Shown: positions 3,407 through 39,586 of the stretch, one piece after another
How positions within the stretch are numbered: position 1 is the first letter of the stretch
Layout: each line of letters opens with the position of its first letter
Assembly (NCBI GenBank): GCA_030018585.1
Contig: JASEHZ010000002.1
Span: forward strand, 1-49,538
Reading direction: 5' to 3'
Origin: Patescibacteria group bacterium
GTDB taxonomy: Bacteria > Patescibacteriota > Minisyncoccia > UBA6257 > GWB1-50-10
Length of the DNA: 49,538 nt
Program-made: the position numbers and the translations under genes
Notes under the pieces: generated by a model
What the model was told of the DNA's origin: nothing
The model's database searches: none
The model's input: the letters and a program-made list of their open reading frames with translations, nothing else

Positions 3407-4081
3407 ATGAAATTTATATCTATAATCATAATTTCTGTCCTAGTTGGATTTTTTGGACTATCTAGCTCTATTCTCGCCCAAACTGAATCCCAAGGAGAAA
3501 TAATTTTTACTTGGCAGGCTAAAAATTTCTACCCGGCCAATTTCGAAGGCAAAGCCCTACCAACCCAAAATTCCAACATAGACACTGCTTTAGAACTTCT
3601 AAAAGATAACAAACTTCAAGATTTGAGTAATGCCGCTATTACTTGGTTTTTGGATGGAAAAATTTTCAAAAAGGGGATTGGCTTTAAAGAAGCTTCTTTT
3701 ATAGCAAACAGGCCGGCCAGCGATTCGCATTTTATTAAAGTAACTATTGAATTGCAAAATGATTTTTACGAAAATTCTTTACGTCTTTATGTTTTCAATC
3801 CTAAAATCGCTATTTTAACAAAACCATTTTCCAGATACACAATTCCCGCCAACGCCGAATTCTCTCTTAGTGCCGTACCTTTCTTTTTTAACGTGGGGTC
3901 TTTTCAAGATCTTTTATTTTTCTGGCAAATCGGCTCAGAAAAAACAAGCGGCTCAAATGCCTTATCTTTGATATTCCAAAAAACGGAAAAAACCATTGAT
4001 GTTTCTGTGGCCATTCAAAACCAAAAAAACATTCTTGAAACAACAAAAGAATTGGTTTATTTGAATATAAAATCCCGTTAG
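3407..4081 (+). CDS. secreted protein of unknown function
   Basis: The N-terminal signal-like sequence is MKFISIIIISVLVGFFGLSSSILAQ. The TAG stop at 4079-4081 lies inside the left arm of repeat cassette E1. Confidence 0.55.
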   Translation: MKFISIIIISVLVGFFGLSSSILAQTESQGEIIFTWQAKNFYPANFEGKALPTQNSNIDTALELLKDNKLQDLSNAAITWFLDGKIFKKGIGFKEASFIANRPASDSHFIKVTIELQNDFYENSLRLYVFNPKIAILTKPFSRYTIPANAEFSLSAVPFFFNVGSFQDLLFFWQIGSEKTSGSNALSLIFQKTEKTIDVSVAIQNQKNILETTKELVYLNIKSR

Positions 4082-4191
4082 AGATAACTAAATTTTAATT
4101 ACTTTAATATTAATGACAAAACAAATAACATTATTATCACGCTCAACGGTCGGGTTTGCGGTCACCTTTGGTGACCTATCTCTAACGGGAT
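4072..4191. repeat. Inverted-repeat-framed cassette E1 (copy 1 of 3)
   Basis: The arms are perfect 15-nt inverted repeats: ATCCCGTTAGAGATA (4072-4086) and TATCTCTAACGGGAT (4177-4191). An inner hairpin GGTCACC-TTT-GGTGACC (4160-4176) abuts the right arm. The right arm includes the A and T of the ATG at 4190. Confidence 0.8.
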
Positions 4192-5710
4192 GAAAAAAAA
4201 TAATTCTTATCTTCTCATTCTTCTCGTCTTTTTTGTCTTTCTTTTCTCGTTTAATTTAATTTTCGCTCAAGGATTTAAATTTAATTTTCCGGGCGCGACC
4301 GCCGGCACTTCAAGCATTCAAGCTTATATTGTAAACTTCTACCAGTTCGGCCTTGCTATTGCCGGCATTTTGGCAGTCGGCATGATTGTGGCAGGCGCAA
4401 TTTATTACAGTTTATCCGGCGCAAGCCCCGACAAACAAAGCGAAGCAAAAGACATGATTACCTCCGCTATTTGGGGACTTATTCTTCTTTTTGGTTCTTA
4501 TTTAATCTTATCCACTATTAATCCTAATTTGGTGGTTTTGGATCTGCCTGGCCAAGGCAGCACTTCTTGCAGCGCCAAGAACGCGCCTAAACCCTGCGAA
4601 ACAAACGAAACACCAATTTATAACCAAAGTAATGGAACTTGCAATTGTTATATTCCTCTTCAAACAAACTGTTCTTTTCAACCAGAATTGCCATCTTGCA
4701 CGCCCGGTCAATCGGCTACAGATGATAAAGGAAACTGTGTTTGCAAGCCGGAAAAAACAGAAACAGCCAGCTGTCCGGGTGATTTTGCGCCGCTTGCTCC
4801 AGATCCAAACAATATCCCAGTTTACGCTTGGACAACGGATGTAAATATAATAAAAGCATTAAAGCCGAACAGGCTTCCTATTGACCCGAGCGCATGGCCT
4901 TATTTTTCTCGTTGTCCAAGGAAAGTAAAAATTAAAATTAGCGGTAGTGGCACTGATTTTTACACAATCGACTGCGACTCTTGTGAAGGCGGTTGGTCAC
5001 AAGCCAATGACGGACATCATATTACGACTTCAACTGACTGGACCACTGGTTGGCTTTGGCCATATTATCCTAAAAAACTCGACCTGAGCAAAGCTCTTTG
5101 TCTTATGTACGCTTGGTATAACCCCGAAGAAAGCGCGTTAGAAAAAGCTGATCTTGACGGCTTAAAAGCCTGCACTACTTTCAGCACCTCTACTTTAGTA
5201 AACATTCCTGTTCTTAAAGACGTGAAGCCTTGTTTAGCTTGCGTTGATTTTCCATTCCAAGTTGACACCCGAACCAATCCTTTTTCTCCAATCCCATCTC
5301 CAGTAATGATTCCATCAAAACCCATAGGTGAGGTATGCAACCCAAGCCTAACATCTTTAGACAAATGTATGGTGACTCCTGGTATAAAAACAAAGCTGAC
5401 TAAATTATATAATCAAACCAAAAATTGGAATGAGACGGGCAGACAAAATGAAGGCGACGCCTGGAATCAAAAAAACTTAAGCTGGGAAGTTACTGAAGTT
5501 TGGCCGCCAGCCGCTGCTCATCAAGACCCTTGTCATTATAACGGAACTTGCATTGACGTGGCTTTGCGCGAAAACGTTAATTGCAATAATGTTGCTGTTT
5601 TTAAAAATTTAGCGCAAAATGCCGGCGGTTTTTGGGTAAAAAATGAATATCCTGACTGCGGCGGCGCAACAACCCCCAATTGGACTGGCGGCCATTTTCA
5701 CTTAAAATAA
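4190..5710 (+). CDS. T4SS pilin-like (VirB2/TrbC-like) N-terminal domain fused to a Cys-rich region and a putative LAS-type Zn-peptidase C-terminus
   Basis: After a signal sequence come two hydrophobic helices, IVNFYQFGLAIAGILAVGMIVAGAIYYSLSG and ITSAIWGLILLFGSYLILSTINP, as in TrbC/VirB2-type pilins. The middle of the protein carries many Cys. The C-terminus has CHYNGTCIDVAL (from 5519) and GGHFHLK, resembling the H-x2-G-x-A-x-D and H-x-H motifs. Confidence 0.65.
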   Translation: MKKNNSYLLILLVFFVFLFSFNLIFAQGFKFNFPGATAGTSSIQAYIVNFYQFGLAIAGILAVGMIVAGAIYYSLSGASPDKQSEAKDMITSAIWGLILLFGSYLILSTINPNLVVLDLPGQGSTSCSAKNAPKPCETNETPIYNQSNGTCNCYIPLQTNCSFQPELPSCTPGQSATDDKGNCVCKPEKTETASCPGDFAPLAPDPNNIPVYAWTTDVNIIKALKPNRLPIDPSAWPYFSRCPRKVKIKISGSGTDFYTIDCDSCEGGWSQANDGHHITTSTDWTTGWLWPYYPKKLDLSKALCLMYAWYNPEESALEKADLDGLKACTTFSTSTLVNIPVLKDVKPCLACVDFPFQVDTRTNPFSPIPSPVMIPSKPIGEVCNPSLTSLDKCMVTPGIKTKLTKLYNQTKNWNETGRQNEGDAWNQKNLSWEVTEVWPPAAAHQDPCHYNGTCIDVALRENVNCNNVAVFKNLAQNAGGFWVKNEYPDCGGATTPNWTGGHFHLK

Positions 5711-19586: not shown

Positions 19587-20585
19587 TTAAACCAAGGAAC
19601 GTTTTTCTGCCGTACCCAAGTGTTTATAAGCGAGAGGGGCGGCAATGCGTCCAGCTGGCGTTCTATTTAAGAGTCCGACTTTCATAAGAAACGGTTCAAG
19701 AACTTCTTCAATTGTTCCAACCTCCTCGTTTAATGAGGCACCGAGGGTTTTTAGACCAACCGGACCGCCGTTAAATTTTTTAATGATAGTTAAAAGGAGT
19801 TGCCGGTCGGTTTCTTCAAGCCCCAAAGAATCTATTTTAAGAAGTTTAAGGGTTTCGTGGACAACTTTTTCGTCAATATTTTTTAGCTTATTTACTTGGG
19901 CAAAATCACGGGCACGTTTTAAAAGACGATTAGCTACGCGGGGCGTGAAGCGGGAGACTTTGGCGAGCACGGTTGTTGCTTCGGGGGTAAGTTCAATGCC
20001 GAGAATTTTAGCGGAGCGCTCAAGAATTTTTTCAATATCTTCGTTTTGATAATAATCAAGTCTGAATGTTGCTCCAAAACGAGATCGAAGAGGTCCGGAC
20101 AATAGATTCGTGCGGGTAGTGGCAGCAATTATCGTAAAAGGCGGCAAATCAAGAGAAAAGGTTCTGGCTGACGGCCCCTTACCGACAATTAAATGAAGTT
20201 TGCGACTTTCCATGGCTGGATATAATATTTCTTCGGTCATTTTGTTTATTCTATGAGCTTCATCAATAAAAAGTATTTCATTCGGTTCAATATTAGAAAG
20301 TATTGCTGCCACGTCGCCGGCGCGTTCAAGGGCTGGACCGGAAGTTGATCGTATGTTGACGCCCATTTCTTTTCCAACAAGATAAGCAAGGGTTGTTTTG
20401 CCTAAACCGGCTTGGCCGTAAAACAAAAGATGGTCGCAATTTTCGTTGCGGCCCTTGGCAGCATCAATAATTAGACGCAAATTAGCTTTTACGTTTTCTT
20501 GGCCGACATATTCATTCCATTTAGTCGGCCTCAGAGTTAATTCAAGATTTTGATCATCTTTATTTGAATTAGTGATTTTTTTCAT
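19587..20585 (-). CDS. ruvB: Holliday junction branch migration helicase RuvB
   Basis: Motifs include LRPTKWNEYVGQE, Walker A GQAGLGKTTLA, Walker B LFIDEAHR and the winged-helix C-terminus. Confidence 0.95.
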   Translation of the reverse strand: MKKITNSNKDDQNLELTLRPTKWNEYVGQENVKANLRLIIDAAKGRNENCDHLLFYGQAGLGKTTLAYLVGKEMGVNIRSTSGPALERAGDVAAILSNIEPNEILFIDEAHRINKMTEEILYPAMESRKLHLIVGKGPSARTFSLDLPPFTIIAATTRTNLLSGPLRSRFGATFRLDYYQNEDIEKILERSAKILGIELTPEATTVLAKVSRFTPRVANRLLKRARDFAQVNKLKNIDEKVVHETLKLLKIDSLGLEETDRQLLLTIIKKFNGGPVGLKTLGASLNEEVGTIEEVLEPFLMKVGLLNRTPAGRIAAPLAYKHLGTAEKRSLV

Positions 20586-20883: not shown

Positions 20884-22554
20884 TTAAAAACAAGTAGTTG
20901 GCCCGGTTAGTCTTTCAATTTCGTCTTTGCTGGTGATGCCTTTTAATACTTTTAATATTCCGTCTTCTTGCATTGTAGTCATCCCTTGTTCTTTTGCCAA
21001 GTTCATAAGTTCAATTTCGGTCGGATTTTGATAAATTTTTTGTTCGATTTTTTCGTCAACCAAGAAAAGTTCAAAAATAGATGTCCGACCTCGATAACCT
21101 AAACCGCCGCACAGATCACAACCTTTCGTTTCAAAAATAGAGAAATTTTTGTAATTTTCTTTATTCACTCTCTTCGGAAGAGAGTTTAAAAAAGCGTTTA
21201 TTTTTATTTTTGTTTTTTCGTCAATTATTTTCTGCGTCTTACAATAAAGACAAAGAACCCTTGCTAATCTTTGGGCGATTACCAGGGAAAGAGCTGGTCC
21301 CAAAATTTGAGGTTTTGCGCCAAGATCAATAAGGCGTGGAATAGCGCCGATCGCGTCATTGGTGTGGAGCGTGGAAAAAACGATATGACCGGTTAGGGCC
21401 GCGTTCATGGCGATTTCGGCCGTTTCTCGATCGCGGATTTCGCCGACCAAAATTACATTCGGATCTTGCCGCAAAATAGATCTTAGACCGCTCGCAAAAG
21501 TGTAATTGGCGTCAGAATCAACTTGAGTTTGGGAAATTCCTGGCAGATGATATTCAATTGGGTCTTCAACGGTAATGATTTTTATTTCCGGTTTAAAAAC
21601 AAATTTAAGAAAAGCGTAAAGCGTAGTTGTTTTACCCGAACCAGTGGGTCCCGTGTTTAAAATAAGTCCGTTCGGTTTTTTAATTCCAGCTTTAACGATT
21701 TCAAGATCGTCTTCGCGCCAGCCCAAATCTTCCAAATTAACTTTTAGAGCGAGCGGATCGAGCAAGCGCAAAACAATAGTTTCGCCGTATTCAGAAGGAA
21801 TAACCGAAGTCCTTATTTCTATGTCGCGGTCTTTTAAGTCAATAGTGAATCGGCCGTCTTGAGGTTCATCAATAATATTGAGTTTTAAATTCGACAGAAG
21901 TTTTATTCTGGTGACGATTGAGTGATAGGTTGGATGGGAAAACTCTTCATAAGCCGTATGAAGCAAGCCGTCTATGCGAAGTCTTAGTTTGTTGGCTTCA
22001 GCTGACGGCTCTAAATGGATATCGGACGCTTTTAAAGCTAGGGCGCCGGCAAGGATAATTTCCGAAATCTGAGAAACTAAAGAACCCTTAAAATCTTTTA
22101 TAGTAGTTGTAAACGATTGAAGATTTTTAATAGAAGCTAAGAGTGTTTGTAGGTTTTGTTCGTCAATTTCAACTCGGCCGCTTATTTCTTTGGCGTCATC
22201 AACTACATATTGATAATAACTCCAGGCATGTTGAAGACCAGTTAACGACGTGATGACAATTTGGACTTCATAATTCTTTTTTAAGTCTTCAATAATTTTT
22301 TTAGCTTCTGGTTTTTCCGGATTAAAACAAGCAACGAGCAGTTTTTTTCTTAAAAGCTGGAGCGGCACAAGAAAAGCTTTGCGCGCTTCTTGTTCGGGTA
22401 CGAGTTTCATGGCTTTTATTTCTGTAGGAACTTTTACGGATATTAAATCAAGATAGGAGAGGCTAAATTGGTTAGCGCGGCGCTTAGCGTCATTTTCTTC
22501 GGCTAATTTTCTTTGTTTTGCAAGTTGTTCGTCCAAGTCTTTAGTTTGGAACAT
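20884..22554 (-). CDS. GspE/PilB-family type II secretion / type IV pilus assembly ATPase
   Basis: Walker A is GPTGSGKTTTLYA. Asp and His boxes are present, and the C-terminus has Cys pairs (CLYCK, CDLCGGLGYRGR). Confidence 0.9.
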   Translation of the reverse strand: MFQTKDLDEQLAKQRKLAEENDAKRRANQFSLSYLDLISVKVPTEIKAMKLVPEQEARKAFLVPLQLLRKKLLVACFNPEKPEAKKIIEDLKKNYEVQIVITSLTGLQHAWSYYQYVVDDAKEISGRVEIDEQNLQTLLASIKNLQSFTTTIKDFKGSLVSQISEIILAGALALKASDIHLEPSAEANKLRLRIDGLLHTAYEEFSHPTYHSIVTRIKLLSNLKLNIIDEPQDGRFTIDLKDRDIEIRTSVIPSEYGETIVLRLLDPLALKVNLEDLGWREDDLEIVKAGIKKPNGLILNTGPTGSGKTTTLYAFLKFVFKPEIKIITVEDPIEYHLPGISQTQVDSDANYTFASGLRSILRQDPNVILVGEIRDRETAEIAMNAALTGHIVFSTLHTNDAIGAIPRLIDLGAKPQILGPALSLVIAQRLARVLCLYCKTQKIIDEKTKIKINAFLNSLPKRVNKENYKNFSIFETKGCDLCGGLGYRGRTSIFELFLVDEKIEQKIYQNPTEIELMNLAKEQGMTTMQEDGILKVLKGITSKDEIERLTGPTTCF

Positions 22555-26280: not shown

Positions 26281-27546
26281 ATGGCGAATTTAAAATCGTT
26301 TTATCATTTGATTTTAGCTTTTTTAGGAAGCGTTATTTTTCGATGTCCCAGCCGGCGTCTTTTTATGGTTGGCGTGACCGGCACCAAAGGCAAATCAACG
26401 GTAATTGAGCTTATTAACGCGATTTTGGAAAAGGCCGGCAAAAAAACCGCTCTTTTTTCTTCGGTTAGAAAAAAGATATGCGACCGAGAGTCTAAAAACA
26501 TTTCCGGCAATACGATGCCTGGCCGGTTTGTAATTCAGGAGTTTTTGCGAGAAGCCGTAAAAGCTAAATGCGAATACGCTTTGATTGAGGTTACTTCTCA
26601 GGGGGTGTTGCAGCATCGGCACAAGTTTATTGATTGGGATGCGGCGATTTTTATTAATCTTGCGCCAGAACATATTGAAGCGCACGGTTCGTTTGAAAAA
26701 TACCGCGATGCTAAAGTTGAATTTTTTAAATACCTTAATAAGTCTAAAAAAGAAATAAAATATTTTTTTATCAACGAAGAAGACTCTAATCATCATTATT
26801 TTGAGGAAGTAGTCAAAAATGTCCCGGGCGGAAAAATCATTTTTTTCAGCCGAGAAAGATTTATTAAAGAAGACTTATGGTCTCATTATGATTTAAATTC
26901 AAAAGAAAGCCGTTGTCTGATCGGTGAATGGTTGGTGGCGGATTTTAATTTAGAAAATGCTTCCGCGGCCGTAGCTTTTGCTCGGTCTAGAAATATTAAT
27001 TGGAACATAATCAAAGAAGCCTTGGAGAATTTTAAGGGCGTGCCGGGCCGGCTTGAATTTGTCCAAAAATCGCCTTTTGCGGTCGTGATTGATTATGCTC
27101 ATACGCCGGATTCTTTAAAAAAAGTTTACGAAACATTAGAGCCGTCATCGTTTTCACCACGTTCAGTCGGAAAAATGATTTGCGTTTTAGGTTCAGCAGG
27201 CGGCGGCAGAGACAAGTGGAAGCGCGCGGAAATGGGCAAGATTGCCGCGACTTATTGCGATAAAATAATTTTGACTAATGAAGATCCGTACGATGAAAAT
27301 CCTGCTGATATTTTAAAACAAATTGAAAATGGTTTTTTGGAAGCGCCGCGGTCGCGGTCTAAACCAGAAAATTATTTTAAAATTCTTGATCGCCGGAAAG
27401 CTATTAAAAAAGCCATATCTTTAGCTCAAAAAGGCGATGTGGTTGTGATTACCGGAAAAGGCAGCGAACAATTTATTCATTTAGAACGCGGCAAAAAAAT
27501 TTCTTGGAATGAAAGAAAAACAGTTGAAGGAGCATTAAAATCTTGA
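26281..27546 (+). CDS. murE: Mur ligase, MurE-like (short N-terminus)
   Basis: The P-loop is GVTGTKGKST, with DYAHTPDSL and GSAGGGRDKWKR motifs. I prefer the ATG at 26281, just after the ruvA stop, over the TTG at 26275. Confidence 0.7.
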   Translation: MANLKSFYHLILAFLGSVIFRCPSRRLFMVGVTGTKGKSTVIELINAILEKAGKKTALFSSVRKKICDRESKNISGNTMPGRFVIQEFLREAVKAKCEYALIEVTSQGVLQHRHKFIDWDAAIFINLAPEHIEAHGSFEKYRDAKVEFFKYLNKSKKEIKYFFINEEDSNHHYFEEVVKNVPGGKIIFFSRERFIKEDLWSHYDLNSKESRCLIGEWLVADFNLENASAAVAFARSRNINWNIIKEALENFKGVPGRLEFVQKSPFAVVIDYAHTPDSLKKVYETLEPSSFSPRSVGKMICVLGSAGGGRDKWKRAEMGKIAATYCDKIILTNEDPYDENPADILKQIENGFLEAPRSRSKPENYFKILDRRKAIKKAISLAQKGDVVVITGKGSEQFIHLERGKKISWNERKTVEGALKS

Positions 27547-27548
27547 AA

Positions 27549-27965
27549 ATGAGGCTTTATAAAGTTTTAAACCACACCGCAGACATAAAACTTCAGATTT
27601 TCGGCCATACAGAAGAAGAGCTTTTTCAAAACGCGGTTTTGGCATTAAATTCTGTTCTTTTGGGCGGGGAGCAAAAAATAGAATTTATTTCCCAAGGTTA
27701 TGAAAAAATTGTTATTAAAAGCAATAATTCTGGTTTTTTGCTCGTAGCTTTTTTAAACGAAATTTTAACAAGAAGCCAGATTAATAAAAAAGTTTATGAA
27801 AAAATCAAATTTTTGAAATTTAATGAAACAAATTTAGAGGCCCAGATTTTTGGGAGAAATGTGAGAATTTTTAAAGAAGACATAAAAGCCGTGACTTATC
27901 ATGACGTGAAAATTAAGAGAAATAAAAAGGGCATATTAGGAACTATAATTACGCTTGACATCTAA
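27549..27965 (+). CDS. archease
   Basis: It contains YKVLNHTADIKLQIFG and a C-terminal KAVTYHDVKI. It starts 3 nt after the murE stop and lies two genes upstream of rtcB. Confidence 0.75.
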   Translation: MRLYKVLNHTADIKLQIFGHTEEELFQNAVLALNSVLLGGEQKIEFISQGYEKIVIKSNNSGFLLVAFLNEILTRSQINKKVYEKIKFLKFNETNLEAQIFGRNVRIFKEDIKAVTYHDVKIKRNKKGILGTIITLDI

Positions 27966-28583: not shown

Positions 28584-29978
28584 ATGGATAAAAGCATTTT
28601 GAATAAAATCAGCGATTTTATTTGGGAAATTCCGCAAAGCTATCAGCAGGACATGCGTGTGCCAGCCAGGATTTTTGCGAGCGAAAAAATTTTGCGCGAT
28701 GTTTTAAAAGACGAATCTTTGGAACAGGTGGTGAATGTTTCAACTTTGCCCGGTATTCAAAAATATTCTTATGCCATGCCGGATATTCATGAAGGATATG
28801 GGTTTCCTATTGGCGGGGTGGCGGCAATGGATATTAATGAGGGCGTGATTTCGCCGGGCGGTATTGGTTTTGACATAAATTGCGGCGTGCGGCTTTTACG
28901 AACAGAAAAAACATTTGATGAAATAAAAAATAAAATTTCAGAGTTTACAAGTGCAATTTATAAAGAAGTGCCGTCAGGTGTCGGAGTTGGCGGTCGGTTT
29001 AAAATGGTTAACAAAGAATTGGATGCAGTTTTAGCGTACGGCGCAGAAGAAATGTTAAAAAAAGGATACGCTATGGAGGATGATCTGAAAAATTGTGAAT
29101 CCGGCGGTTGTTTAAAAGAAGCTGATCCGGGCTTAGTTTCAAAACGTGCCAAAGATCGCGGGCGGGATCAATTAGGTACAATCGGCGCCGGCAACCATTT
29201 TATTGAAATTCAAAAAGTCCAGGAAATTTTTAATGAAGAATGTGCGAGAAAATGGGGTTTATTTAAAAACCAGATAACGATTTTAATTCATTGCGGATCG
29301 CGTGGTCTTGGCCATCAAGTAGCGACAGATTATATTCAAACAATGTTAAATTCGCTTTCAAAATATAATATTTCAGTTTGCGATTCGCAGCTCGCCTGTG
29401 CGCCTTTTAGCTCTTACGAAGGTCAGAATTATTTTGGCGCAATGTCCGCAGCCGCGAATTTTGCTTGGGCTAACCGGCAGTTGATTACTTGGGAAGTGCG
29501 GGAGGCGTGGCGTAAGGTTTTTGGTTTTACGGCGGGTTTAGAATTGAAACTTGTTTATGACGTGGCGCATAATATTGCAAAAATAGAGGAATACGGCGGT
29601 AGAGAGATGGTTGTTCACAGAAAAGGGGCAACCAGGGCGTTTCCGGAGCAGCCGGTTCTGATTCCTGGGTCAATGGGCACAGCTTCTTATGTTTTAGTTG
29701 GCGCCGAAGAATCACTGAAAAGCAGTTTTGGAAGCTGTTGCCATGGGGCGGGTCGGGTTATGTCGCGAACTAGAGCCAAAAAAACTGTCCGCGGTTCAGA
29801 ATTAAAAAAAGACTTGGAAGAAAAAGGCATTTTTATAAAAGCCGGCTCAATAGCAGGATTGGCCGAAGAAGCGCCGGTTGCTTATAAAGACATAGATGAA
29901 ATTGTAAGCATTGTTCATGAAATAGGATTGGCAAAAAAAGTGGTGCGATTAAAACCATTAGGAGTAATTAAAGGATAA
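28584..29978 (+). CDS. rtcB: RNA 3'-phosphate ligase RtcB
   Basis: Motifs are GGIGFDINCGVR, GAGNHFIE, HCGSRGLGHQ and CHGAGR. Length is 464 aa. Confidence 0.92.
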   Translation: MDKSILNKISDFIWEIPQSYQQDMRVPARIFASEKILRDVLKDESLEQVVNVSTLPGIQKYSYAMPDIHEGYGFPIGGVAAMDINEGVISPGGIGFDINCGVRLLRTEKTFDEIKNKISEFTSAIYKEVPSGVGVGGRFKMVNKELDAVLAYGAEEMLKKGYAMEDDLKNCESGGCLKEADPGLVSKRAKDRGRDQLGTIGAGNHFIEIQKVQEIFNEECARKWGLFKNQITILIHCGSRGLGHQVATDYIQTMLNSLSKYNISVCDSQLACAPFSSYEGQNYFGAMSAAANFAWANRQLITWEVREAWRKVFGFTAGLELKLVYDVAHNIAKIEEYGGREMVVHRKGATRAFPEQPVLIPGSMGTASYVLVGAEESLKSSFGSCCHGAGRVMSRTRAKKTVRGSELKKDLEEKGIFIKAGSIAGLAEEAPVAYKDIDEIVSIVHEIGLAKKVVRLKPLGVIKG

Positions 29979-30590: not shown

Positions 30591-30714
30591 TATAAATCCT
30601 TATATTTGGTTGTAAGATTCTGTTGTAATTATACATTTTAATAAATTGAAAGTCAAGACTTGTTTTAAAATCATAGCTTATTTAGTTCGTTGGTTTATAA
30701 TAATTAAGGGATTT

Positions 30715-30836
30715 ATCCCGTTAGAGACAATAATTCCATGATTTTCAAAACAAGCCTTATGATATATAAGAAAAGTCGATTGCCGTTAAAACGGCTGATT
30801 TACGGTCGTCCGAAGACGACCTGTCTCTAACGGGAT
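30715..30836. repeat. Inverted-repeat-framed cassette E2 (copy 2 of 3)
   Basis: The arms are perfect 15-nt repeats: ATCCCGTTAGAGACA (30715-30729) and TGTCTCTAACGGGAT (30822-30836). An inner hairpin GGTCGTC-CGAA-GACGACC (30804-30821) abuts the right arm. The ATG at 30835 is inside the arm. Confidence 0.8.
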
Positions 30837-32190
30837 GAAACTTACTTTTTGTGGTGGGGCAAAGTCAGTAACAGGTTCCAATTATTTACTTGAATCTGGA
30901 GGCAAGAAAATTTTAATTGATTGCGGACTTCATCAGGGCGGTTCTTATTCTGAATCCCAGAATTTTGAACCATTTCCTTATAAACCGGAGGAAATTGAAG
31001 CGGTTTTTATTACTCATGCTCATATCGATCATATTGGTCGTTTGCCTCAGTTTTGCCGGGCGGGTTTTAGGGGTCAGATTTTTTCAACGCCGCCCACTAA
31101 GGATTTTGGTGAATTTTTACTGTTAGATTCTGAGCATATTCTTCGGGAAGAAGCGCAAAAACGGAAAAAGCCGCCGCTTTATGAGATTAGCGATGTGGTA
31201 GCGACCATGGCTTTGTGGCACAAAGTTTCTTATCACGAAAAAACAAACATTTCTGGTTTTGAAATTGAATTTTTTGATGCTGGTCATATTTTAGGTTCAA
31301 GTTCGATTGTTATTTCTGTTGAAGGCAAGCGAATAGTTTTTTCCGGAGATTTGGGCAATAATCCGTCGCCATTTATCAATTCAACGGAATATATTGAAAA
31401 TGTTGATTACGCGCTTATTGAATCGGTTTACGGCAATAGGATTCATGAAGAAGTGGATCGTCGTAAGGAAATCCTGGAAGATTTAATTGAAGATACGGTA
31501 AAAAACATGGGTGTTTTTTTGATTCCGGCTTTTGCTCTGGAACGGACTCAGGAAATGATTTTTGAGCTTAATGGACTTGTTGAAAATGGTCGGATTCCCA
31601 GAGCGCCGGTTTTTATTGATAGTCCCTTAGCCATAAAACTTACAGCCGTTTACCAGAAATATTCTGAAAATCCGCTGTATTTTAATTCAGAGTCAATGAG
31701 ATTATTAAAAAAAGGTGATGCAATATTTAATTTCCCCGGACTTAAGATGGCGCTCACCACCGAGCAATCTAAGGACATAAATAACGTGCCGCCGCCAAAA
31801 GTTATTATTGCCGGTTCCGGCATGTCAAATGCCGGAAGAATTTTACATCACGAGTTGCTTTATTTATCAGATCCCAAGAATACGATTTTGATTATCGGTT
31901 ATCAAGCCAGCGGATCGCTCGGTCGAAACTTAATTGATGGTGCGAAAACTGTGAAAATTTTTGGGAAAACCGTTTCTGTTGGATGTAAAACAGAATCGAT
32001 CAGCGGTTATTCGGCGCATGCGGATCAGAACCAGCTCTTAAAATGGGTAGAACCGATGCGTTTAAGTGTTAAAAAAGTTTTTGTGGTTCAAGGCGAAGAA
32101 GATCAGGCCTTACCGTTAGCCCAGAAAATAAGAGATGAATTAGCGGTTGAAACCGAAGTTCCTTCACCGGGCGATACCGTGGTGTTATAA
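30835..32190 (+). CDS. MBL-fold beta-CASP ribonuclease (CPSF/RNase J-like)
   Basis: The N-terminus is MKLTFCGGAKSVTGSNYLL and the HxHxDH motif is HAHIDHIGRLP. A beta-CASP and C-terminal region (SAHAD) follow. Confidence 0.85.
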   Translation: MKLTFCGGAKSVTGSNYLLESGGKKILIDCGLHQGGSYSESQNFEPFPYKPEEIEAVFITHAHIDHIGRLPQFCRAGFRGQIFSTPPTKDFGEFLLLDSEHILREEAQKRKKPPLYEISDVVATMALWHKVSYHEKTNISGFEIEFFDAGHILGSSSIVISVEGKRIVFSGDLGNNPSPFINSTEYIENVDYALIESVYGNRIHEEVDRRKEILEDLIEDTVKNMGVFLIPAFALERTQEMIFELNGLVENGRIPRAPVFIDSPLAIKLTAVYQKYSENPLYFNSESMRLLKKGDAIFNFPGLKMALTTEQSKDINNVPPPKVIIAGSGMSNAGRILHHELLYLSDPKNTILIIGYQASGSLGRNLIDGAKTVKIFGKTVSVGCKTESISGYSAHADQNQLLKWVEPMRLSVKKVFVVQGEEDQALPLAQKIRDELAVETEVPSPGDTVVL

Positions 32191-35198: not shown

Positions 35199-35255
35199 AA
35201 AGACAGTTAATTAACAATTTGTTTAATAATTCAAAAAAGGAGTTGTAGAAATGAA

Positions 35256-35609
35256 ATGAAAGTAGAACTAGAATCATTAGAGCTTTTTCAAGCCGATATG
35301 GTTGTATGGAACAAAACCGAAGAGTTTCTGATTGTAACAGGTGACCATAACACTACTAAAGGACGGGAATTCTTTGGTCAGCGCGAGCAGGCTTATAATA
35401 ATGCTATCGAAAAAGCGGCTGAAGCAGGTTATAAACTTGTTGTAAATCATTATGAGCCAAACCGATGGATCCGCTATGCCAACAATCCTCGAGCTGTTGG
35501 TAAAATTATTGGATTGCCCATGAAAATAAAAAGAGATGCGCATGGGAATTGGAATTCTTACGATGTTGCGTCGGTGATTGATAAAACTTGGGATGAGATA
35601 ATGGTATAA
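35256..35609 (+). CDS. hypothetical protein
   Basis: A 117-aa ORF with an AAGGAG RBS at 35237-35242. A two-codon ATG-AAA-TGA mini-frame at 35251 overlaps the ATG at 35256. Confidence 0.5.
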   Translation: MKVELESLELFQADMVVWNKTEEFLIVTGDHNTTKGREFFGQREQAYNNAIEKAAEAGYKLVVNHYEPNRWIRYANNPRAVGKIIGLPMKIKRDAHGNWNSYDVASVIDKTWDEIMV

Positions 35610-35936
35610 ACCCCGAAAAGGTACTTACGATGACGAGTATTTTACTTTAGCTGAAGGCAGGTGTGAGTTAGAGCAAGCGGGAGAAAATTTTCGGTTGGTG
35701 GGCAGAGGTTATCAATGTTCTTTCTTGGATTTTAACCCAAAACTACTTTCGATGACTTTAATTCCTATATCAAAGGACTTAAATCTATTCCTATGTTGGA
35801 CCGCAACTCTCTTTGGCAGGAAGTAATATTTGATCCCGAGCCATTTAGCAAAGAACCGGCGGTAGGTCCAGATGGTAGGGTAGATGTAAAAGAAGCCTTG
35901 GGAAGACTGGGAAAGTGGTATATAGATAGCGACTAA
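35602..35936 (+). pseudogene. possible frameshifted/decayed coding remnant
   Basis: Two stop-free stretches lie in adjacent frames: 35602-35826 and 35736-35936. They overlap by about 90 nt and neither has a convincing start. The translations look protein-like (..GTYDDEYFTLAEGRCELEQAGENFRLVGRGYQCSFLDF.. and ..TTFDDFNSYIKGLKSIPMLDRNSLWQEVIFDPEPFSKEPAVGPDGRVDVKEALGRLGKWYIDSD). Confidence 0.3.
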
Positions 35937-36033
35937 AAATCAAGCCAGACGGGTGGGATAAAAATCGTTTCACCCATCTATTAATCTGAAATAATTAAAA
36001 CAAAAATCATTCATTAAAATAAGGAGATTCAAA

Positions 36034-37035
36034 ATGAAATCAATGCAAATTACTCGCCACAACAGGCGAACAAATGGCAGGACATCTGACTCACATCAGG
36101 TGGTCAAAATCATCACTGATTTGGAAACCGCCAAGCAGGCGTTTTCAGAAATTGACAAACGCTTTGCTAAGGTAGCTGGCACGTCAGTCGGGCGGAAACT
36201 GATGACTGCTATCCTTTGGGTAGCAAAACCGGTTCTGCCAAGTAAATGGTATCAAAACTGGGAGCGGAGACTGTCCTTGCTTGAAAATATTCGGGCCGAG
36301 CTTTCGAGCTTGATCGAGGAGGTGGAGGTGGCACTGATCAGCTTAGCCGAGCTAGCCACCACCAAGCAGGCTGAACTTAAAGAGTACGGAGTTCAGCTCA
36401 AACGAGCCAAGGAAGAGCAATGGGACGTTAAACAACTCCGTGAATACCTGTTCGAGGTAGGAAGGGTGCCGAATGCACCAGAAATTTCCTGGCTTCTCGA
36501 TGAACAACTGGAGCTGCTGACACCAGTGCAACTTGCTGACAAAAAGGATGAGTTACTCCAAGTATTGGAGAGTAACATCCACGTCGGCGAGCAAGTTATC
36601 CAACTGATGGCAAAAGTAGCTGAAGCTGGATTAGAGACGCTCGAAAAGGCGGCTATTCAGTACTGGGGCCTGTCCGAGTTCATAGAACCGCTCGAGGTGT
36701 TACGTCAAGCAGCCACAAACGCGGTGGCAGTAAAAAAGTCATCGTTCGAAGCAAAGGAAATTGTTCATCAGTACCTCGGGCAGATTGTATCCAACGTGGA
36801 ACTCAGTATCGAGGCGACTGAACTGCTGCGACAGTTCTTAATCACTGGGCCAGAGACGCATCAGGAACTAACCGAGTATGTGGGGCGACTTGATAACAAA
36901 ATTCAAGGTCTCTACAACTCAGCCAAACGCAGCCAGCTAAAGCAAAGCAGGATTAACCTCTTGTCGCGTACGCCTACACCTACGCCCATCAGTGATTTGT
37001 TATCACCCCAACCGGCCACCAATAATGCCGGTTAA
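36034..37035 (+). CDS. hypothetical all-helical / coiled-coil protein (GC-rich island gene 1)
   Basis: It has an AAGGAG RBS 7 nt upstream. The 333-aa protein is rich in L/E/Q/A with heptad-like stretches and a Pro/Thr tail. Codon usage is unlike the neighbouring genes. Confidence 0.65.
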   Translation: MKSMQITRHNRRTNGRTSDSHQVVKIITDLETAKQAFSEIDKRFAKVAGTSVGRKLMTAILWVAKPVLPSKWYQNWERRLSLLENIRAELSSLIEEVEVALISLAELATTKQAELKEYGVQLKRAKEEQWDVKQLREYLFEVGRVPNAPEISWLLDEQLELLTPVQLADKKDELLQVLESNIHVGEQVIQLMAKVAEAGLETLEKAAIQYWGLSEFIEPLEVLRQAATNAVAVKKSSFEAKEIVHQYLGQIVSNVELSIEATELLRQFLITGPETHQELTEYVGRLDNKIQGLYNSAKRSQLKQSRINLLSRTPTPTPISDLLSPQPATNNAG

Positions 37036-37045
37036 GGAGGATGTC

Positions 37046-38038
37046 ATGAACACGATATGGGGTAAGGATAAGGCGCTGGTTTACCTGGGTGCTCTTGAGA
37101 ACGCACTCAACGGCTTCTTAGTTAACCACCGATTCAACGAACCGCTGTGTATTCTGATTCGTGACATTCTGTTGCGGTACCTCACGCGCCAGCACAACTA
37201 CTTGGCCAATAAAAAGGCGGTAATACTACCGCTAGGTTGGAGTGGCTTTCCACTACTCAAGCGAATGCGGCTCGATAGCGCTGCCTACCTAGGTAAGATC
37301 GTACGAACTATCAAACCCGACCTGTGCTGCCCCAAGCGAATGAAGTGCTATACCAAGGATGACTGGGAGAAAGAGTGGTGTTCTGCGAGGGCACCAACAC
37401 TAGTACTCGAGGTTAAGCCAGAGCTGCAGGAGGATGACCGTACATTGTGGTTGTGGTGGCAGGTATCCAAGTCGCACTGGCTAAAACGAGTCAATCAAAG
37501 AGCTCTAGAAGAGGGAGAATGGCGAGTCGAATTAGGTGATGGCGACGAATTCTGGGTTAACCCTAATGACTTTGTAGATTGCTATGGCCTTCGGTGTAAG
37601 GGGGGCGATGGAGGTCAAGAACTAGTCGTCGGGCTATCGAGAATGACAAGCGGCGGTAGGTTAGAAAATCTTGACGACAGGTGGCGGCGGGTGTTAAAGC
37701 CCAAGCTATTGGTAAAGCTTAAATCGATACTGTCCTCTAAAAAGGTAACCCATTTTCTTAACAGTACGATTGTCAGGTCGCTCATCATCACTGGTTTGGT
37801 TGTCTCGGTCGTCGCCATCATTATTATAGGAAGTACAAAACCAGCAGATAGTACTGAACCAAGAAAAAGGTATACATACCTGCTTTCGGAGAGTGAACGT
37901 AAACATTACTCCCCGGAATGGAAGCAAAAGATATTAGCACGTTATCAACAAGGAGACACCGTCGAATTCCTAGAGACGGTATTTTATACTCCTACGCCTG
38001 TGCTTTTGCAGTGGGAGATAATTCCGAAGGAGAAATAA
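37046..38038 (+). CDS. hypothetical Trp/Cys-rich protein with one C-proximal transmembrane helix (GC-rich island gene 2)
   Basis: An AAGGAGG RBS (37034-37040) lies 5 nt before the ATG at 37046, which is 10 nt after the upstream stop. The TM segment is IVRSLIITGLVVSVVAIIIIG. Confidence 0.6.
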   Translation: MNTIWGKDKALVYLGALENALNGFLVNHRFNEPLCILIRDILLRYLTRQHNYLANKKAVILPLGWSGFPLLKRMRLDSAAYLGKIVRTIKPDLCCPKRMKCYTKDDWEKEWCSARAPTLVLEVKPELQEDDRTLWLWWQVSKSHWLKRVNQRALEEGEWRVELGDGDEFWVNPNDFVDCYGLRCKGGDGGQELVVGLSRMTSGGRLENLDDRWRRVLKPKLLVKLKSILSSKKVTHFLNSTIVRSLIITGLVVSVVAIIIIGSTKPADSTEPRKRYTYLLSESERKHYSPEWKQKILARYQQGDTVEFLETVFYTPTPVLLQWEIIPKEK

Positions 38039-38042
38039 ATCG

Positions 38043-38080
38043 AAACCGAGATTGAAAATTCAGTCTCGGTTTTTTATTTT
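38043..38080 (+). terminator. intrinsic terminator closing the island operon
   Basis: AAACCGAGA-loop-TCTCGGTTT is followed by TTTTTATTTT, starting 5 nt after the stop at 38038. Confidence 0.75.
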
Positions 38081-38133
38081 AGATGTTTGGCGCTTTTCTT
38101 TTCGTGTTAAAAACGCGAGAATTAAATCAATAA

Positions 38134-38239
38134 GCCCCGTTAGATATCAAATTTTAAGCGCAAGGCGTTGGTTAGATATTTTGCGGGGCGAGATAATCTT
38201 ATAAATATGCAAGGGATACTAAGAATATCTAACGGGGTG
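38134..38239. repeat. Inverted-repeat-framed cassette E3 (copy 3 of 3, divergent)
   Basis: The arms are perfect 13-nt repeats: CCCCGTTAGATAT (38135-38147) and ATATCTAACGGGG (38225-38237). A second direct copy, GTTAGATATT, lies at 38171-38180. The final G of the right arm is the first base of the GTG at 38237. Confidence 0.7.
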
Positions 38240-39586
38240 AAAGAAAAGATAATCCGCTTGCTGTTTTTTGTTTTTTTAATTTTTTTACCATTTAGTGCTA
38301 AAAAATTTCTTTTTTCGTTGCCGGCATTGCTGTTTGGGAATCAAATTAATGAATTAAATTCTGTTTTTTTGTTTGCGAGCGATATATTTTTGATTTTGTT
38401 TGTTGTTTCGGTTCTTTGGTTTTGGGGACAGGATTTTAAAAAAATAGTTATTTCAAACAAGCTGATTTTAGTTTTTCTTGTTTTGGGGTTGGTTTCGATT
38501 TTTTTTGCTTCAGATATTTATATGAGTTTTTATTTCAGGTTAAGATTTTTGTTGGTTTCATCTGCGGCGTTTGCGATTGGAGTGTTAATTAAAAATAGCC
38601 TTTTAAAGTTTGATTGCATTATGTTTGGTTTAGGACTTTCCGCGGTTTTCCAGTCAATGGTTGCGATTTTGCAGTTTTTGGCGCAGAAAAGCATTGGCTT
38701 ATGGTTTTTGGGCGAGTCAATAATCAATTTAAATTCCGAAGGCGTGGCGCGGGTTATGATTAATGGCGTAAAAATGCTTAGGGCTTACGGTACGATGCCG
38801 CACGCCAATATTTTAGCTGGATTTTTGATTTTGGGACTTATTGCGCTTTTTTATTTGTTTATTAGGAATTTTAATGATAAGTTTTGGAAAAAATTATTGA
38901 TTTCTGTAGGGATTTTTATTATTTGTTTAGGATTAATCTTTAGTTTTTCCCGTTCAGGCTGGATTGCGGCCTTAATTTCAATAGTTTTATTTTTTGTTTT
39001 GGGATTTTTTAATAAAGCTGAAAGAAAAAAGTTTTGGCAGTTGCTCGCTTTATTATTTTGTATTTTCGCGATTTTATTTTTTGCTTTTGGTTCAATGATT
39101 TTTCCGCGGGCGCATTTTTCGTCCGGAGAAATTTCTGTGAATCACCGAATGATTTATAATAAGATAGGTTTGGAAATTATTAAAGGAAATCCATTAGGCG
39201 TTGGTATTGGCAATCAGGTAATCTTCGGGGTGAATAATGGTTTGTATGAAAAATACGGGCTAAAAGAATCCTGGAGTTGGCAGCCAGTTCACAACATCTA
39301 TCTTCTTATTGGTTCAGAGCTTGGTGTGTTTGGTTTAATAGTGTTTTTGCTCATAATCATTTTTTTAATTTTTCAAAAAGACAACGAAAAAAGGTTTTTG
39401 ATTTTTAAAAAGAATTTAGATTTCAATGTTTTATTAACAATACTTTCGGGGTTTCTGATTTTCGGGCTTTTTGATCACTTTTATTGGGATCTTCAATCTG
39501 GGAGATTGATGTTTTGGCTGGTTTTGGGCATGATGATCGGATTAAGCCCTCGTCGTTCAACGGACCCACGCACTATAATAAATTAA
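38237..39586 (+). CDS. O-antigen ligase (Wzy_C)-family polytopic membrane protein
   Basis: It has about 10-12 TM helices, with FSFSRSGWIAALIS and PVHNIYLLIGSELGVFGL motifs. The start is moved to the GTG at 38237 by analogy with E1 and E2; the ORF track used a TTG at 38168 inside the cassette. Confidence 0.7.
   Translation: MKEKIIRLLFFVFLIFLPFSAKKFLFSLPALLFGNQINELNSVFLFASDIFLILFVVSVLWFWGQDFKKIVISNKLILVFLVLGLVSIFFASDIYMSFYFRLRFLLVSSAAFAIGVLIKNSLLKFDCIMFGLGLSAVFQSMVAILQFLAQKSIGLWFLGESIINLNSEGVARVMINGVKMLRAYGTMPHANILAGFLILGLIALFYLFIRNFNDKFWKKLLISVGIFIICLGLIFSFSRSGWIAALISIVLFFVLGFFNKAERKKFWQLLALLFCIFAILFFAFGSMIFPRAHFSSGEISVNHRMIYNKIGLEIIKGNPLGVGIGNQVIFGVNNGLYEKYGLKESWSWQPVHNIYLLIGSELGVFGLIVFLLIIIFLIFQKDNEKRFLIFKKNLDFNVLLTILSGFLIFGLFDHFYWDLQSGRLMFWLVLGMMIGLSPRRSTDPRTIIN

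What the first reader, a model, noticed from the sequence alone, without database searches (positions are those of the whole stretch)
38134..38239. Cassette E3: start-codon covariation, a duplicated arm core, and a corrected gene start
The arms CCCCGTTAGATAT (38135-38147) and ATATCTAACGGGG (38225-38237) keep the GTTAGA/TCTAAC core. The downstream gene starts with GTG at exactly the offset where E1 and E2 have ATG, in all three cases followed by AAA. The left-arm base opposite the first start-codon base changes with it: T opposite A in E1 and E2, C opposite G in E3. The start codon therefore looks like part of the conserved pairing. A second direct copy of the core, GTTAGATATT (38171-38180), could pair with the right arm instead of the outer left arm. 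That gives two mutually exclusive helices, as in attenuators and riboswitch expression platforms. The arm spacing (90 nt between arm starts) is shorter than in E1 and E2 (105-107 nt). The analogy implies the O-antigen-ligase-like gene begins at 38237, not at the TTG at 38168 inside the cassette.
Basis: partly seen in the sequence, partly recalled or inferred. Interest (0 to 1): 0.7.

Follow-up and report, generated by a model that had tools for sequence, protein, structure and literature searches.

The report
Foldback insertion element burying a start codon
The "cassette" in front of the O-antigen-ligase-like gene is one copy of an apparently undescribed family of small palindromic insertion elements, common in Patescibacteria (CPR) and some other uncultured phyla, that sit exactly on start codons, supply the codon's first base, and fold the mRNA leader so that the start codon is base-paired.

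Summary
The arms, the GTG at the shared offset, the T-A to C-G change, the second core copy and the 38237 gene start are all confirmed.

The riboswitch/attenuator reading is only partly right. E1, E2 and E3 belong to a dispersed family with the layout Y-CCCGTTAGA(N3-4) ... (N3-4)TCTAACGGG-R. A scan of one genome per species found at least 127 further copies, mostly in Patescibacteria, also in Omnitrophota, Planctomycetota and Desulfobacterota. In 69 copies one arm abuts the ATG or GTG of a long ORF in unrelated genes. The final R is the first base of that codon and pairs with Y (T-A 57, C-G 10).

In 83 of 130 copies the same 4-mer (TGAA, TGGA, TGAG, TAAA) flanks both ends, like a target-site duplication. 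Two syntenic relatives lack E2 and E3. Copies also occur nested, in tandem and as 27-nt hairpins. Rfam and the literature searches returned nothing.

The best reading is a MITE-like foldback element transcribed as the 5' leader. The same internal segment instead acts as a decoy for the left arm, giving a fold with a free GUG only 1.2 kcal/mol above the closed fold. E1 and E2 lack this. The transposase and the function are unknown.

The parts
38042..38073 (+). Terminator-like hairpin plus T-run ending the upstream gene (36992..38038). It implies the ligase mRNA needs its own promoter between here and the element.
   Evidence: 14-bp stem followed by a T-run, repeat I24
38121..38126 (+). Candidate -10 box TTAAAT, 7 nt before G38134. 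This would start the transcript at the first base of the left arm. Inferred, not shown.
   Evidence: Sequence. By analogy with the family, 10 of 69 members have a -10 hexamer matching TATAAT at 5 or more of 6 positions exactly 6 nt before the left flank.
38134..38148 (+). Left arm, the 5' strand of helix P1 (GCCCCGTTAGATATC). C38135 pairs with G38237, and G38134 pairs with U38238 as a G-U wobble.
   Evidence: pair probabilities 0.76-0.97
38171..38180 (+). It overlaps the decoy and does not pair with the right arm in the predicted ensemble.
   Evidence: (pair probability 0.0)
38175..38189 (+). Decoy, a degenerate right arm (GATATTTTGCGGGGC). It pairs with the left arm to form the alternative 5' hairpin, which frees the right arm and the GUG.
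38225..38238 (+). Right arm, the 3' strand of P1 (ATATCTAACGGGGT). Its last two bases are the G and U of the GUG start codon.
   Evidence: P(unpaired) of G38237 = 0.03 and of U38238 = 0.10
38237..39586 (+). O-antigen-ligase-like (Wzy_C, PF04932) gene, 449 aa, GTG start.
4072..4191 (+). Sister copy E1. Arms are at 4072-4086 and 4177-4191, and the P2 hairpin GGTCACC-TTT-GGTGACC is at 4160-4176. The stop codon TAG (4079-4081) of ORF 3407..4081 lies inside the left arm. The downstream gene 4190..5710 has a T4SS-pilin-like domain.
30712..30839 (+). Sister copy E2. Arms are at 30712-30729 and 30822-30839, and the P2 hairpin GGTCGTC-CGAA-GACGACC is at 30804-30821. The downstream gene 30835..32190 is a beta-CASP/MBL ribonuclease. 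A perfect TATAAT lies 15 nt upstream of CCCG.

Best explanation
E3, like E1 and E2, is a fixed copy of a family of small foldback (palindromic) insertion elements. The element has terminal inverted repeats Y-CCCGTTAGA-N3-4 and N3-4-TCTAACGGG-R and a variable AT-rich interior. It is often asymmetric. One end carries a degenerate second arm (the decoy). The other end carries a short GG...CC hairpin (P2) stacked on the terminal helix.

Most family members are flanked by the same 4-mer on both sides (TGAA, TGGA, TGAG, TAAA), as after staggered-cut transposition. In Patescibacteria the surviving copies sit on start codons. The element's last base (A or G) plus TG from the duplicated target rebuilds ATG or GTG. 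That is why the first base of the start codon covaries with the first base of the left arm.

The promoter lies just upstream, so the element is transcribed as the 5' leader. Its arms form a 13-20 bp helix that base-pairs the start codon. In E3 an internal decoy competes for the left arm. The nascent leader folds first into a 5' hairpin that leaves GUG free. The closed fold is only about 1 kcal/mol more stable. This makes the leader a bistable, folding-order-dependent gate on translation.

Shown: family membership, inverted and direct repeats, absence from syntenic relatives, predicted folds, and the gene start. Inferred: the mode of transposition (no transposase was found), the transcription start, and any regulatory use.
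For: Family and arms:
- 3 copies in the window against 0 in shuffles.
- The terminal pair is TA in 66 and CG in 57 of 130.
- P1 covariation is far above the shuffled and slid controls.

Start-codon placement:
- 69 copies abut the ATG or GTG of an ORF of 60 aa or more, in unrelated genes.

Insertional origin:
- Flanking 4-mers are identical in 83 of 130 copies, against a mean of 10.8 (maximum 20) when the flanks are re-paired between elements.
- Unusual 4-mers such as TGCA, TGGG and TGGA match on both sides.
- Tandem arrays and nested copies occur, and sizes run from 27 to 123 nt.
- L124 and L125 share the gene order MBL-LDcluster4-88aa-Aa_trans-ligase with the window. They have TATAAT + 8-12 nt + ATG before the MBL gene, and the ligase directly follows Aa_trans. 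Neither site holds an element.

Transcribed as leader:
- A -10 hexamer peak lies exactly 6 nt before the left flank.
- A terminator lies upstream of E3.

RNA-level constraint:
- The sense strand folds 2.2 kcal/mol better than the antisense strand (p = 8e-4).
- P2 lies on the gene-proximal side in 18-24 copies and on the distal side in 5.
- The gene-distal arm has excess complementarity to the interior (mean z = -1.13, p = 2e-4). The gene-proximal arm has none (z = +0.24).
- Decoys read ..CGGGAU, CGGGAC or CGGGGC and match the flank of their own element.

E3 specifically:
- P1 pair probability is 0.96. The decoy fold is -32.2 against -33.4 kcal/mol.
- Exposing the start costs 1.3 kcal/mol, against 16.1 with a shuffled interior. 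This is the lowest of the 69.
Against: - E1, E2 and E3 themselves lack the flanking direct repeat. For these three, joining the flanks without any duplication already gives a sensible ancestral start (sequence).
- Copies within one genome share little beyond the arms, unlike recently active MITEs.
- No autonomous element or transposase with these ends was found in the 119 loci or in the window.
- Bistability is not general. The opening cost over all 69 does not differ from shuffled interiors (15.0 against 16.5 kcal/mol, p = 0.22). E1 and E2 are locked shut, at 17.2 and 20.1 kcal/mol. How their genes are translated is unexplained.
- The strand asymmetry could partly reflect GC skew of coding strands.
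- All folds are predictions. No transcript data exist.
Confidence: 0.6

Rival explanations
1. Selfish or neutral palindromic insertion with no regulatory role. The arms are conserved only because a transposase needs them. The helix over the start codon is a tolerated by-product. E3's decoy is debris from a nested or duplicated arm.
For: - Direct repeats, nesting, tandem copies and the size continuum fit a selfish element.
- Bistability is absent in most copies.
- The interior is not conserved.
- Decoys look like degenerate right arms.
Against: - The asymmetric interior is oriented non-randomly relative to the gene: 18-24 copies one way against 5 the other.
- Excess complementarity affects the gene-distal arm only.
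- The sense strand is more stable than the antisense strand.
- A 17-20 kcal/mol lock on the start codon of a ribonuclease gene would be costly if nothing relieved it.
Confidence: 0.22
2. This is a dedicated cis-regulatory RNA (attenuator or riboswitch expression platform) in which the second core copy replaces the outer left arm in pairing with the right arm.
For: The second copy exists. With the outer arm forced unpaired, it does pair with the right arm, but the fold is then only -16.3 kcal/mol.
Against: - Pair probability is 0 in the full leader, and the duplex is -11.7 against -22.8 kcal/mol.
- The feature is present in 3 of 130 members.
- There is no conserved ligand-pocket-like core and no Rfam hit.
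- The downstream genes are unrelated.
- The elements are absent in syntenic relatives.
Confidence: 0.04
3. Invertible promoter (inverton). The inverted repeats are recombinase sites, and the AT-rich interior carries a promoter that flips on and off.
For: - Inverted repeats flank an AT-rich segment directly upstream of genes, including a surface-polysaccharide gene.
- 51 of 69 interiors contain a -10-like hexamer.
- Both interior orientations occur across loci.
Against: - -10-like hexamers are equally frequent on both strands and show no positional peak.
- Members as short as 27 nt cannot invert.
- No recombinase was found among the 30 window ORFs scanned.
- Flanking direct repeats are not expected of invertons.
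- The right arm overlapping the start codon fits a leader better than a switch.
Confidence: 0.04
4. The element is the same, but it moves by another route. It could be a single-strand hairpin element mobilised by an HUH/Y1 enzyme (REP/RAYT-like or IS200/IS605-like), or a site-specific recombination cassette. In that case the flanking 4-mers are a cleavage or crossover site rather than a duplication.
For: - The whole element is one hairpin with a conserved stem.
- It is flanked by a conserved RTRAA motif on both sides. Tandem copies create a full palindromic site, TCTAACGGG-ATGAAT-CCCGTTAGA.
- GTTAGA and TCTAAC equal the integron core and inverse-core hexamers (own knowledge).
- There is no discrete element size.
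Against: - The 4-mers vary (TGAA, TGGA, TGAG, TGCA, TAAA, CAAG, CGGG) yet match within an element. That fits a duplication better than a fixed site.
- The order of the core hexamers is the reverse of attC.
- No covariation was seen between the 4-mer and the variable P1 triplet, by inspection.
- No such enzyme gene was seen.
Confidence: 0.1

Closest known systems
Correia / nemis elements of Neisseria, and similar bacterial MITEs (ERIC, RUP, Chunjie). From my own knowledge of the literature, not tested here.
   Same: They are about 100-150 bp and non-coding, with terminal inverted repeats and short flanking duplications. They have many copies next to genes. They are co-transcribed with the neighbouring gene and fold into a long hairpin that affects mRNA fate (RNase III for nemis).
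   Different: The end sequence differs. The duplication here is a 4-mer of TRRA type rather than TA. The spread is cross-phylum. Sizes run from 27 to 123+ nt with unrelated interiors. Placement is exact on start codons, with the element supplying the first base. No parent IS is known.
REP / REPIN elements mobilised by RAYT transposases (own knowledge)
   Same: They are dispersed extragenic palindromes with a conserved stem, a variable loop and a conserved short motif beside the stem.
   Different: The motif here is RTRAA on both sides as a direct repeat, not a 5' GTAG. REPs are lineage-specific, are not tied to start codons, and no RAYT was seen here.
Integron attC sites (own knowledge of the R''/R' consensus RYYYAAC...GTTRRRY)
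   Same: The hexamers TCTAAC and GTTAGA are the classic inverse core and core. attC sites are also variable-length imperfect palindromes lying between genes.
   Different: The order is inverted here (GTTAGA first, TCTAAC last), so the stem polarity is opposite. Elements do not alternate with cassettes. No integrase was found.
Delayed-folding control of the MS2 maturation gene, and metastable hairpins of hok mRNA (own knowledge)
   Same: A sequence at the 5' end pairs long-range with the translation start. A small 5' hairpin that forms first competes with that pairing and gives a time window for initiation. This is what E3's decoy fold predicts.
   Different: Those are unique, vertically inherited leaders with experimental proof. 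Here the module is dispersed and insertion-derived, the decoy is present in only a subset, and nothing is tested.

Membership tests
Bacterial MITE | Short, non-coding | tested here: met
   Elements are 93-123 nt in the scan, with shorter ones of 27-83 nt. The short ORF that opens from the left ATG varies in length and frame.
Bacterial MITE | Terminal inverted repeats | tested here: met
   The helix is 12-14 bp with 98.6% of cells paired. The E3 arms are 13 of 13 complementary.
Bacterial MITE | Target-site duplication flanking the element | tested here: inconclusive
   In the family, 83 of 130 copies have identical 4-mers (control mean 10.8). E1, E2 and E3 themselves have none.
Bacterial MITE | Multiple similar copies within a genome | tested here: inconclusive
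   There are 3 copies in 49.5 kb and up to 3-4 per 8-kb locus elsewhere. Interiors are poorly conserved between copies.
Bacterial MITE | Filled versus empty sites among relatives | tested here: met
   The E2 and E3 sites are empty in syntenic L124 and L125. These relatives are distant, with about 43-45% ligase identity.
Bacterial MITE | Autonomous IS with the same ends | tested here: not met
   No pair of arms encloses a gene-sized segment with matching arm extensions. There is no transposase domain in the 30 window ORFs scanned. The search space was small.
Integron attC | 5'-RYYYAAC ... GTTRRRY-3' order, with the R''/R' pair at the stem base | tested here: not met
   The order is GTTAGA ... 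TCTAAC on both strands.
Integron attC | Integron integrase or cassette array nearby | tested here: not met
   No integrase or recombinase domain was found in the window ORFs scanned. Neighbours are housekeeping genes in conserved synteny.
Riboswitch / attenuator | Conserved sequence-structure core, associated with one functional gene class | tested here: not met
   The interior is variable. Downstream genes include a pilin-like protein, a beta-CASP RNase, an O-antigen ligase and many others. There is no Rfam family.
Riboswitch / attenuator | Mutually exclusive helices controlling the expression platform | tested here: inconclusive
   E3 has two near-isoenergetic folds. E1, E2 and most of the family do not.
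Inverton | Inverted repeats flanking a promoter, a nearby invertase, and both orientations in a population | tested here: inconclusive
   The inverted repeats are present. There is no promoter signal beyond AT-richness and no invertase in the ORFs scanned. Population orientation is not testable with these tools.
REP/REPIN | GTAG tetranucleotide 5' of the palindrome, and a RAYT gene | tested here: not met
   The flank is RTRAA (ATGAA or GTAAA) as a direct repeat. No Y1-transposase domain was found in the window.

The most novel reading that the evidence does not exclude
A cross-phylum class of mobile 5'-leader modules. These would be foldback elements that land on start codons (and, outside Patescibacteria, on stop codons) and rebuild the start codon from their own terminal base. 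They would impose on any host gene a long-range helix that shuts the start site. That helix would be relieved either by a built-in decoy hairpin (a co-transcriptional folding switch, as in E3) or by cleavage or excision of the helix. The genome encodes RtcB plus archease and a beta-CASP RNase beside E2.
Probability: 0.2. Interest if true: 0.8.

Novelty: new variant of a known kind. Interest (0 to 1): 0.62.

Why it matters
If correct, hundreds of Patescibacteria genes of all kinds carry the same insertion-derived leader, which base-pairs the start codon. These are organisms with tiny genomes, few Shine-Dalgarno sites and many leaderless or near-leaderless genes.

That has three consequences:
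- It is a practical rule for annotation. The true start is the R-TG immediately after TCTAACGGG.
- It shows how a mobile element can occupy the only tolerated site in a leaderless gene without destroying it.
- It is a candidate for a widespread, portable layer of translational control or RNA processing in lineages where almost nothing is known about gene regulation.

The same arm sequence recurs in Omnitrophota, Planctomycetota and Desulfobacterota. This also points to an unidentified, horizontally shared mobilising enzyme.

Tried and rejected
- Upstream-ORF coupling through the shared [A/G]TGA overlap. Only E1 has a start codon in that frame.
- A conserved leader peptide from the left ATG (MNPVR...). 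Lengths and frames vary, and stops are unrelated to structure.
- Known RNA families. Rfam gives only tRNA at gathering thresholds. At E <= 1 to 5 on the elements it gives only tRNAs, weak hits lying on those tRNAs, and noise.
- An internal promoter. -10-like hexamers are equally frequent on both strands and have no positional peak. The consensus promoter scans give no more hits than shuffles.
- An autonomous parent element. No arm pairs with matching extensions enclose a gene. No transposase or recombinase domain appears in 30 window ORFs.
- A phage vector. There are only 3 hits in the viral collection. The one inspected is a GC-rich, unrelated sequence.
- Literature. Nothing was found for the arm sequence, nor for CPR combined with inverted repeat, MITE or leaderless. 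A 2024 survey of prokaryotic MITEs does not mention these phyla.
- Further diverged copies in the window. None were found beyond E1-E3 and the E3 decoy.
- General bistability of the family. It is not significant.
- Orthologues of E3 to test conservation of the second copy. This was not possible, because the ligase cluster has one member and the best homologue is 45% identical.

Full report
**1. What is in the sequence**

- CCCCGTTAGATAT (38135-38147) and ATATCTAACGGGG (38225-38237) are perfectly complementary, with 77 nt between them.
- GTG starts at 38237.
- GTTAGATATT recurs at 38171-38180.

Two more units share the layout CCCGTTAGA-N(98-100)-TCTAACGGG followed directly by ATGAAA. E1 lies at 4074-4189 before gene 4190..5710. 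E2 lies at 30717-30834 before gene 30835..32190. No shuffle of the window gives a single such pair. The base before CCCG is T, T and C, opposite A, A and G of the start codon. An upstream ORF ending in the shared xTGA exists only in E1, so uORF coupling was dropped.

**2. It is a widespread family, not a local curiosity**

An exact-pattern scan was run over one genome per bacterial and archaeal species. All are MAGs.
- Most are Patescibacteria: "Saccharibacteria", Parcubacteria/Paceibacteria, Kaiser-, Nomura-, Moran-, Wolfebacteria and others.
- The rest are Omnitrophota, Planctomycetota (including Brocadia), Desulfobacterota/"Deltaproteobacteria", and single Elusimicrobia, Spirochaetia and others.

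By my arithmetic an 18-base pattern with a 31-wide gap should hit about 270 times by chance in 596 Gb. The hits are nevertheless genuine, because features outside the pattern are conserved.
- The bases just outside the arms are complementary in 123 of 130 (TA 66, CG 57).
- The helix continues for 3-4 covarying pairs inside the fixed 9-mers.
- On a 69-sequence alignment of the two ends, 98.6% of cells pair, against 36-50% when the partner is slid. Four pairs change on both sides, giving 101 doubly changed cells against 29.5 in shuffles (0 of 500).

Rfam has no family for these elements, even at E <= 1 to 5. Four literature searches found nothing, and a 2024 survey of prokaryotic MITEs does not mention these phyla.

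**3. Relation to start codons**

In 69 elements one arm abuts the ATG (59) or GTG (10) of an ORF of 60 aa or more. By their first residues the genes look like topoisomerase I, acetate kinase, Fmt, glycosyltransferases, GTPases and others. In the window they are a T4SS-pilin-like protein, a beta-CASP RNase and the ligase.

The last base of the right inverted repeat is the first base of the start codon, and it pairs with the first base of the left repeat (U-A 57, C-G 10, other 2).

The ligase start is confirmed.
- Eleven of the 39 closest homologues begin at the column of the GTG.
- Nothing upstream of that column is conserved.
- The collection's own call for this contig is the 449-aa protein.

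**4. Evidence that the elements are insertions**

- With the gene on the right, the left flank reads A-T-G-R-R-Y (A 60, T 61, G 54 of 69) and the right flank reads R-T-G-R-R-N.
- Flank positions 2-5 are the same 4-mer on both sides in 50 of 69, and in 83 of all 130. Re-pairing the flanks between elements gives a mean of 10.8 and a maximum of 20 in 1000 trials.
- The match holds for minority 4-mers: TGGA 11 of 11, TGAG 8 of 11, and TGCA, TGGG, CAAG, CGGG once each. Direct duplication therefore explains it better than pairing.
- The layout is thus [TGAA] Y-CCCG...CGGG-R [TGAA], which is inverted ends plus a 4-bp duplication.
- Outside Patescibacteria the usual form is G[TAAA]C-...-G[TAAA]N. In several cases the left TAA or TAG is the stop codon of the upstream gene (L009, L035, L059, L069, L099). 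In about ten Patescibacteria loci the left TGA is the stop of the upstream gene, which is an ATGA overlap split by the element.
- Elements occur in tandem, sharing one ATGAAT (L031, L034). They occur nested (L016, L073) and as bare 27-29-nt hairpins (L077, L095, L106, L086, L075).
- Two genomes share the window's gene order RuvA-Mur ligase ... beta-CASP RNase-LDcluster4-88aa-Aa_trans-ligase-...-MurB-...-ClpB-like-MFS-PolX. Both lack the elements. Before the RNase gene they have TATAAT + 8 or 12 nt + ATG, and the ligase follows Aa_trans directly.
- In the window about 4 kb of extra DNA (34231-38038, up to 48% GC) separates Aa_trans from the ligase. It ends in a terminator at 38042-38073, and E3 follows.

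Points against a textbook MITE:
- E1, E2 and E3 have no flanking repeat.
- Interiors differ strongly even within a genome.
- No autonomous element or transposase was found.

**5. Evidence that it acts as RNA**

- Most genes of this genome lack a Shine-Dalgarno sequence and have -10 boxes close to the ATG.
- In the family, hexamers matching TATAAT at 5 or more of 6 positions peak exactly 6 nt upstream of the left flank A (10 of 69, against 0-4 at every other distance). Transcripts should therefore begin at the left end of the element, which would have been the original leaderless start.
- E3 has TTAAAT 7 nt before G38134, and E2 has TATAAT 15 nt before CCCG.
- The sense strand folds better than the antisense strand by 2.2 kcal/mol (43 of 69, p = 8e-4; 254 against 189 G-U pairs).
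- The interior is asymmetric. A 6-8-bp GG...CC hairpin (P2) sits directly on the 13th pair of the terminal helix. It shows at least 11 different stems that are all perfectly complementary, for example GGAAATC/GATTTCC, GGTCGTC/GACGACC and GGTCACC/GGTGACC.
- P2 lies on the gene side in 18-24 elements and on the far side in 5. My binomial estimate is p of about 0.01 to 0.0005.
- The far-side (5') arm has excess complementarity to the interior (mean z = -1.13, p = 2e-4). The gene-side arm has none (z = +0.24; paired test p = 6e-5).
- The partners are degenerate right arms 15-40 nt downstream of the left arm (..AGCGGGAUA..AACGGGAUA..GGCGGGACA..UGCGGGGC). They match their own element's flank: AU with AU, GU with AC, GC with GC.

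**6. E3 in detail**

- The full leader (38134-38250) folds at -33.4 kcal/mol with the outer helix at probability 0.96. G38237 and U38238 are unpaired with probability 0.03 and 0.10.
- The transcript made before the right arm exists (38134-38224) folds at -27.1 kcal/mol. The left arm is then paired to 38175-38189.
- Keeping that hairpin, the full leader reaches -32.2 kcal/mol with AACGGGGUG single-stranded.
- Forcing the start region open costs 1.3 kcal/mol in E3, against 16.1 with a shuffled interior. This is the lowest of all 69 elements.
- About ten other elements are intermediate (5.5-10.4 kcal/mol). E1 (17.2), E2 (20.1) and most others are fully locked. The family as a whole does not differ from its shuffled controls (p = 0.22).
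- E3 is therefore predicted to be bistable, but this is a property of a subset and not a family definition.

**7. Interpretation**

The best-supported account is a MITE-like foldback element that survives at gene boundaries.
- In leaderless or short-leader Patescibacteria genes, the only tolerated site downstream of the promoter is the start codon itself. The element's R plus the duplicated TG restores that codon.
- Once transcribed, the arms bury the start codon.
- E3 carries a decoy that should keep the start accessible on nascent RNA. This is the logic known from the MS2 maturation gene and from hok mRNA (my knowledge).
- For E1 and E2 some other relief must be assumed. Candidates are processing of the helix, as RNase III does for Neisseria nemis elements (my knowledge), or a start site inside the element.

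Rival explanations, with my estimates:
- A purely selfish element without an RNA role: 0.22.
- A different mobilisation chemistry (HUH/Y1 or site-specific recombination): 0.10.
- An inverton: 0.04.

The integron resemblance (TCTAAC and GTTAGA) fails because the order of the two hexamers is reversed.

**8. Limits**

- The family sample is biased. It required exact 9-mers and a 75-105-nt gap, and the scan was truncated.
- The window's genome has no close relatives, so E3 orthologues could not be examined.
- No expression data exist, and all energies are predictions.
- The mobilising enzyme is unknown.

Noticed in passing
window 34231-38038: About 4 kb lies between the Aa_trans gene and the ligase that is absent from two syntenic relatives. 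GC reaches 48% against about 36% elsewhere. It encodes a TrmB-like regulator on the minus strand and three ORFs without Pfam hits, and it ends in a terminator at 38042-38073. It is probably horizontally acquired. E3 sits at its right edge.
   Followed up: partly
window 27543-29978 and 30835-32190: Archease (27543..27965) and RtcB RNA ligase (28584..29978) lie just upstream of E2 and its beta-CASP/RMMBL ribonuclease gene. Together they form an RNA cleavage and ligation gene neighbourhood. RtcB is also near LDcluster4 in relative L123.
   Followed up: no
window 20692-20850: A different inverted repeat, TTTTAAGACCTGTGGGCAA / TTGCCCACAGATCTTAAAA (19 nt, 95% complementary, 121 nt between the arms). 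It lies in the intergenic region between the T2SSE ATPase gene (20884..22554, minus strand) and ruvB (19587..20585, minus strand), about 107 nt upstream of ruvB. It may be another foldback element family.
   Followed up: no
window 4079-4081: The stop codon TAG of ORF 3407..4081 lies inside E1's left arm (GT-TAG-A). The element therefore seems to supply both the stop of the upstream gene and the A of the downstream ATG. Joining the flanks gives ...ATAAAATGAAAAAA, a typical ATGA stop/start overlap.
   Followed up: partly
window, all gene starts (for example 11312-13777 minus strand, 19055-19510 minus strand, 28584): Most genes lack a Shine-Dalgarno sequence. Several have TATAAT or TACAAT 6-8 nt before the start codon, which suggests leaderless mRNAs. 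Only three genes (28034, 35256, 36034) show AGGAG-type sites.
   Followed up: partly
L098 432-538 and L037 1916-2099: In a Spirochaetia MAG the arms enclose a complete tRNA gene. In a Patescibacteria MAG the right arm ends 2 nt inside the 5' end of a tRNA, and the left flank is complementary to the acceptor strand. The elements therefore also sit on RNA-gene boundaries.
   Followed up: no
L009, L029, L035, L036, L073, L084, L086, L087, L113 (elements listed): Omnitrophota, Planctomycetota and Deltaproteobacteria copies share internal hairpins with a conserved loop (G)GCAUUAAAC(C) and a second hairpin CCACCGAC-UAAA-GUCGGUGG. This is a distinct structured subfamily with no Rfam match.
   Followed up: no
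window 1239-5710 and 8643-11302: The window contains a T4SS-like cluster (a TraG/VirB4-like ATPase, and a pilin-domain protein downstream of E1). It also contains the dnaA-dnaN region, so it probably spans the replication origin. Cumulative GC skew turns near 8-10 kb.
   Followed up: no
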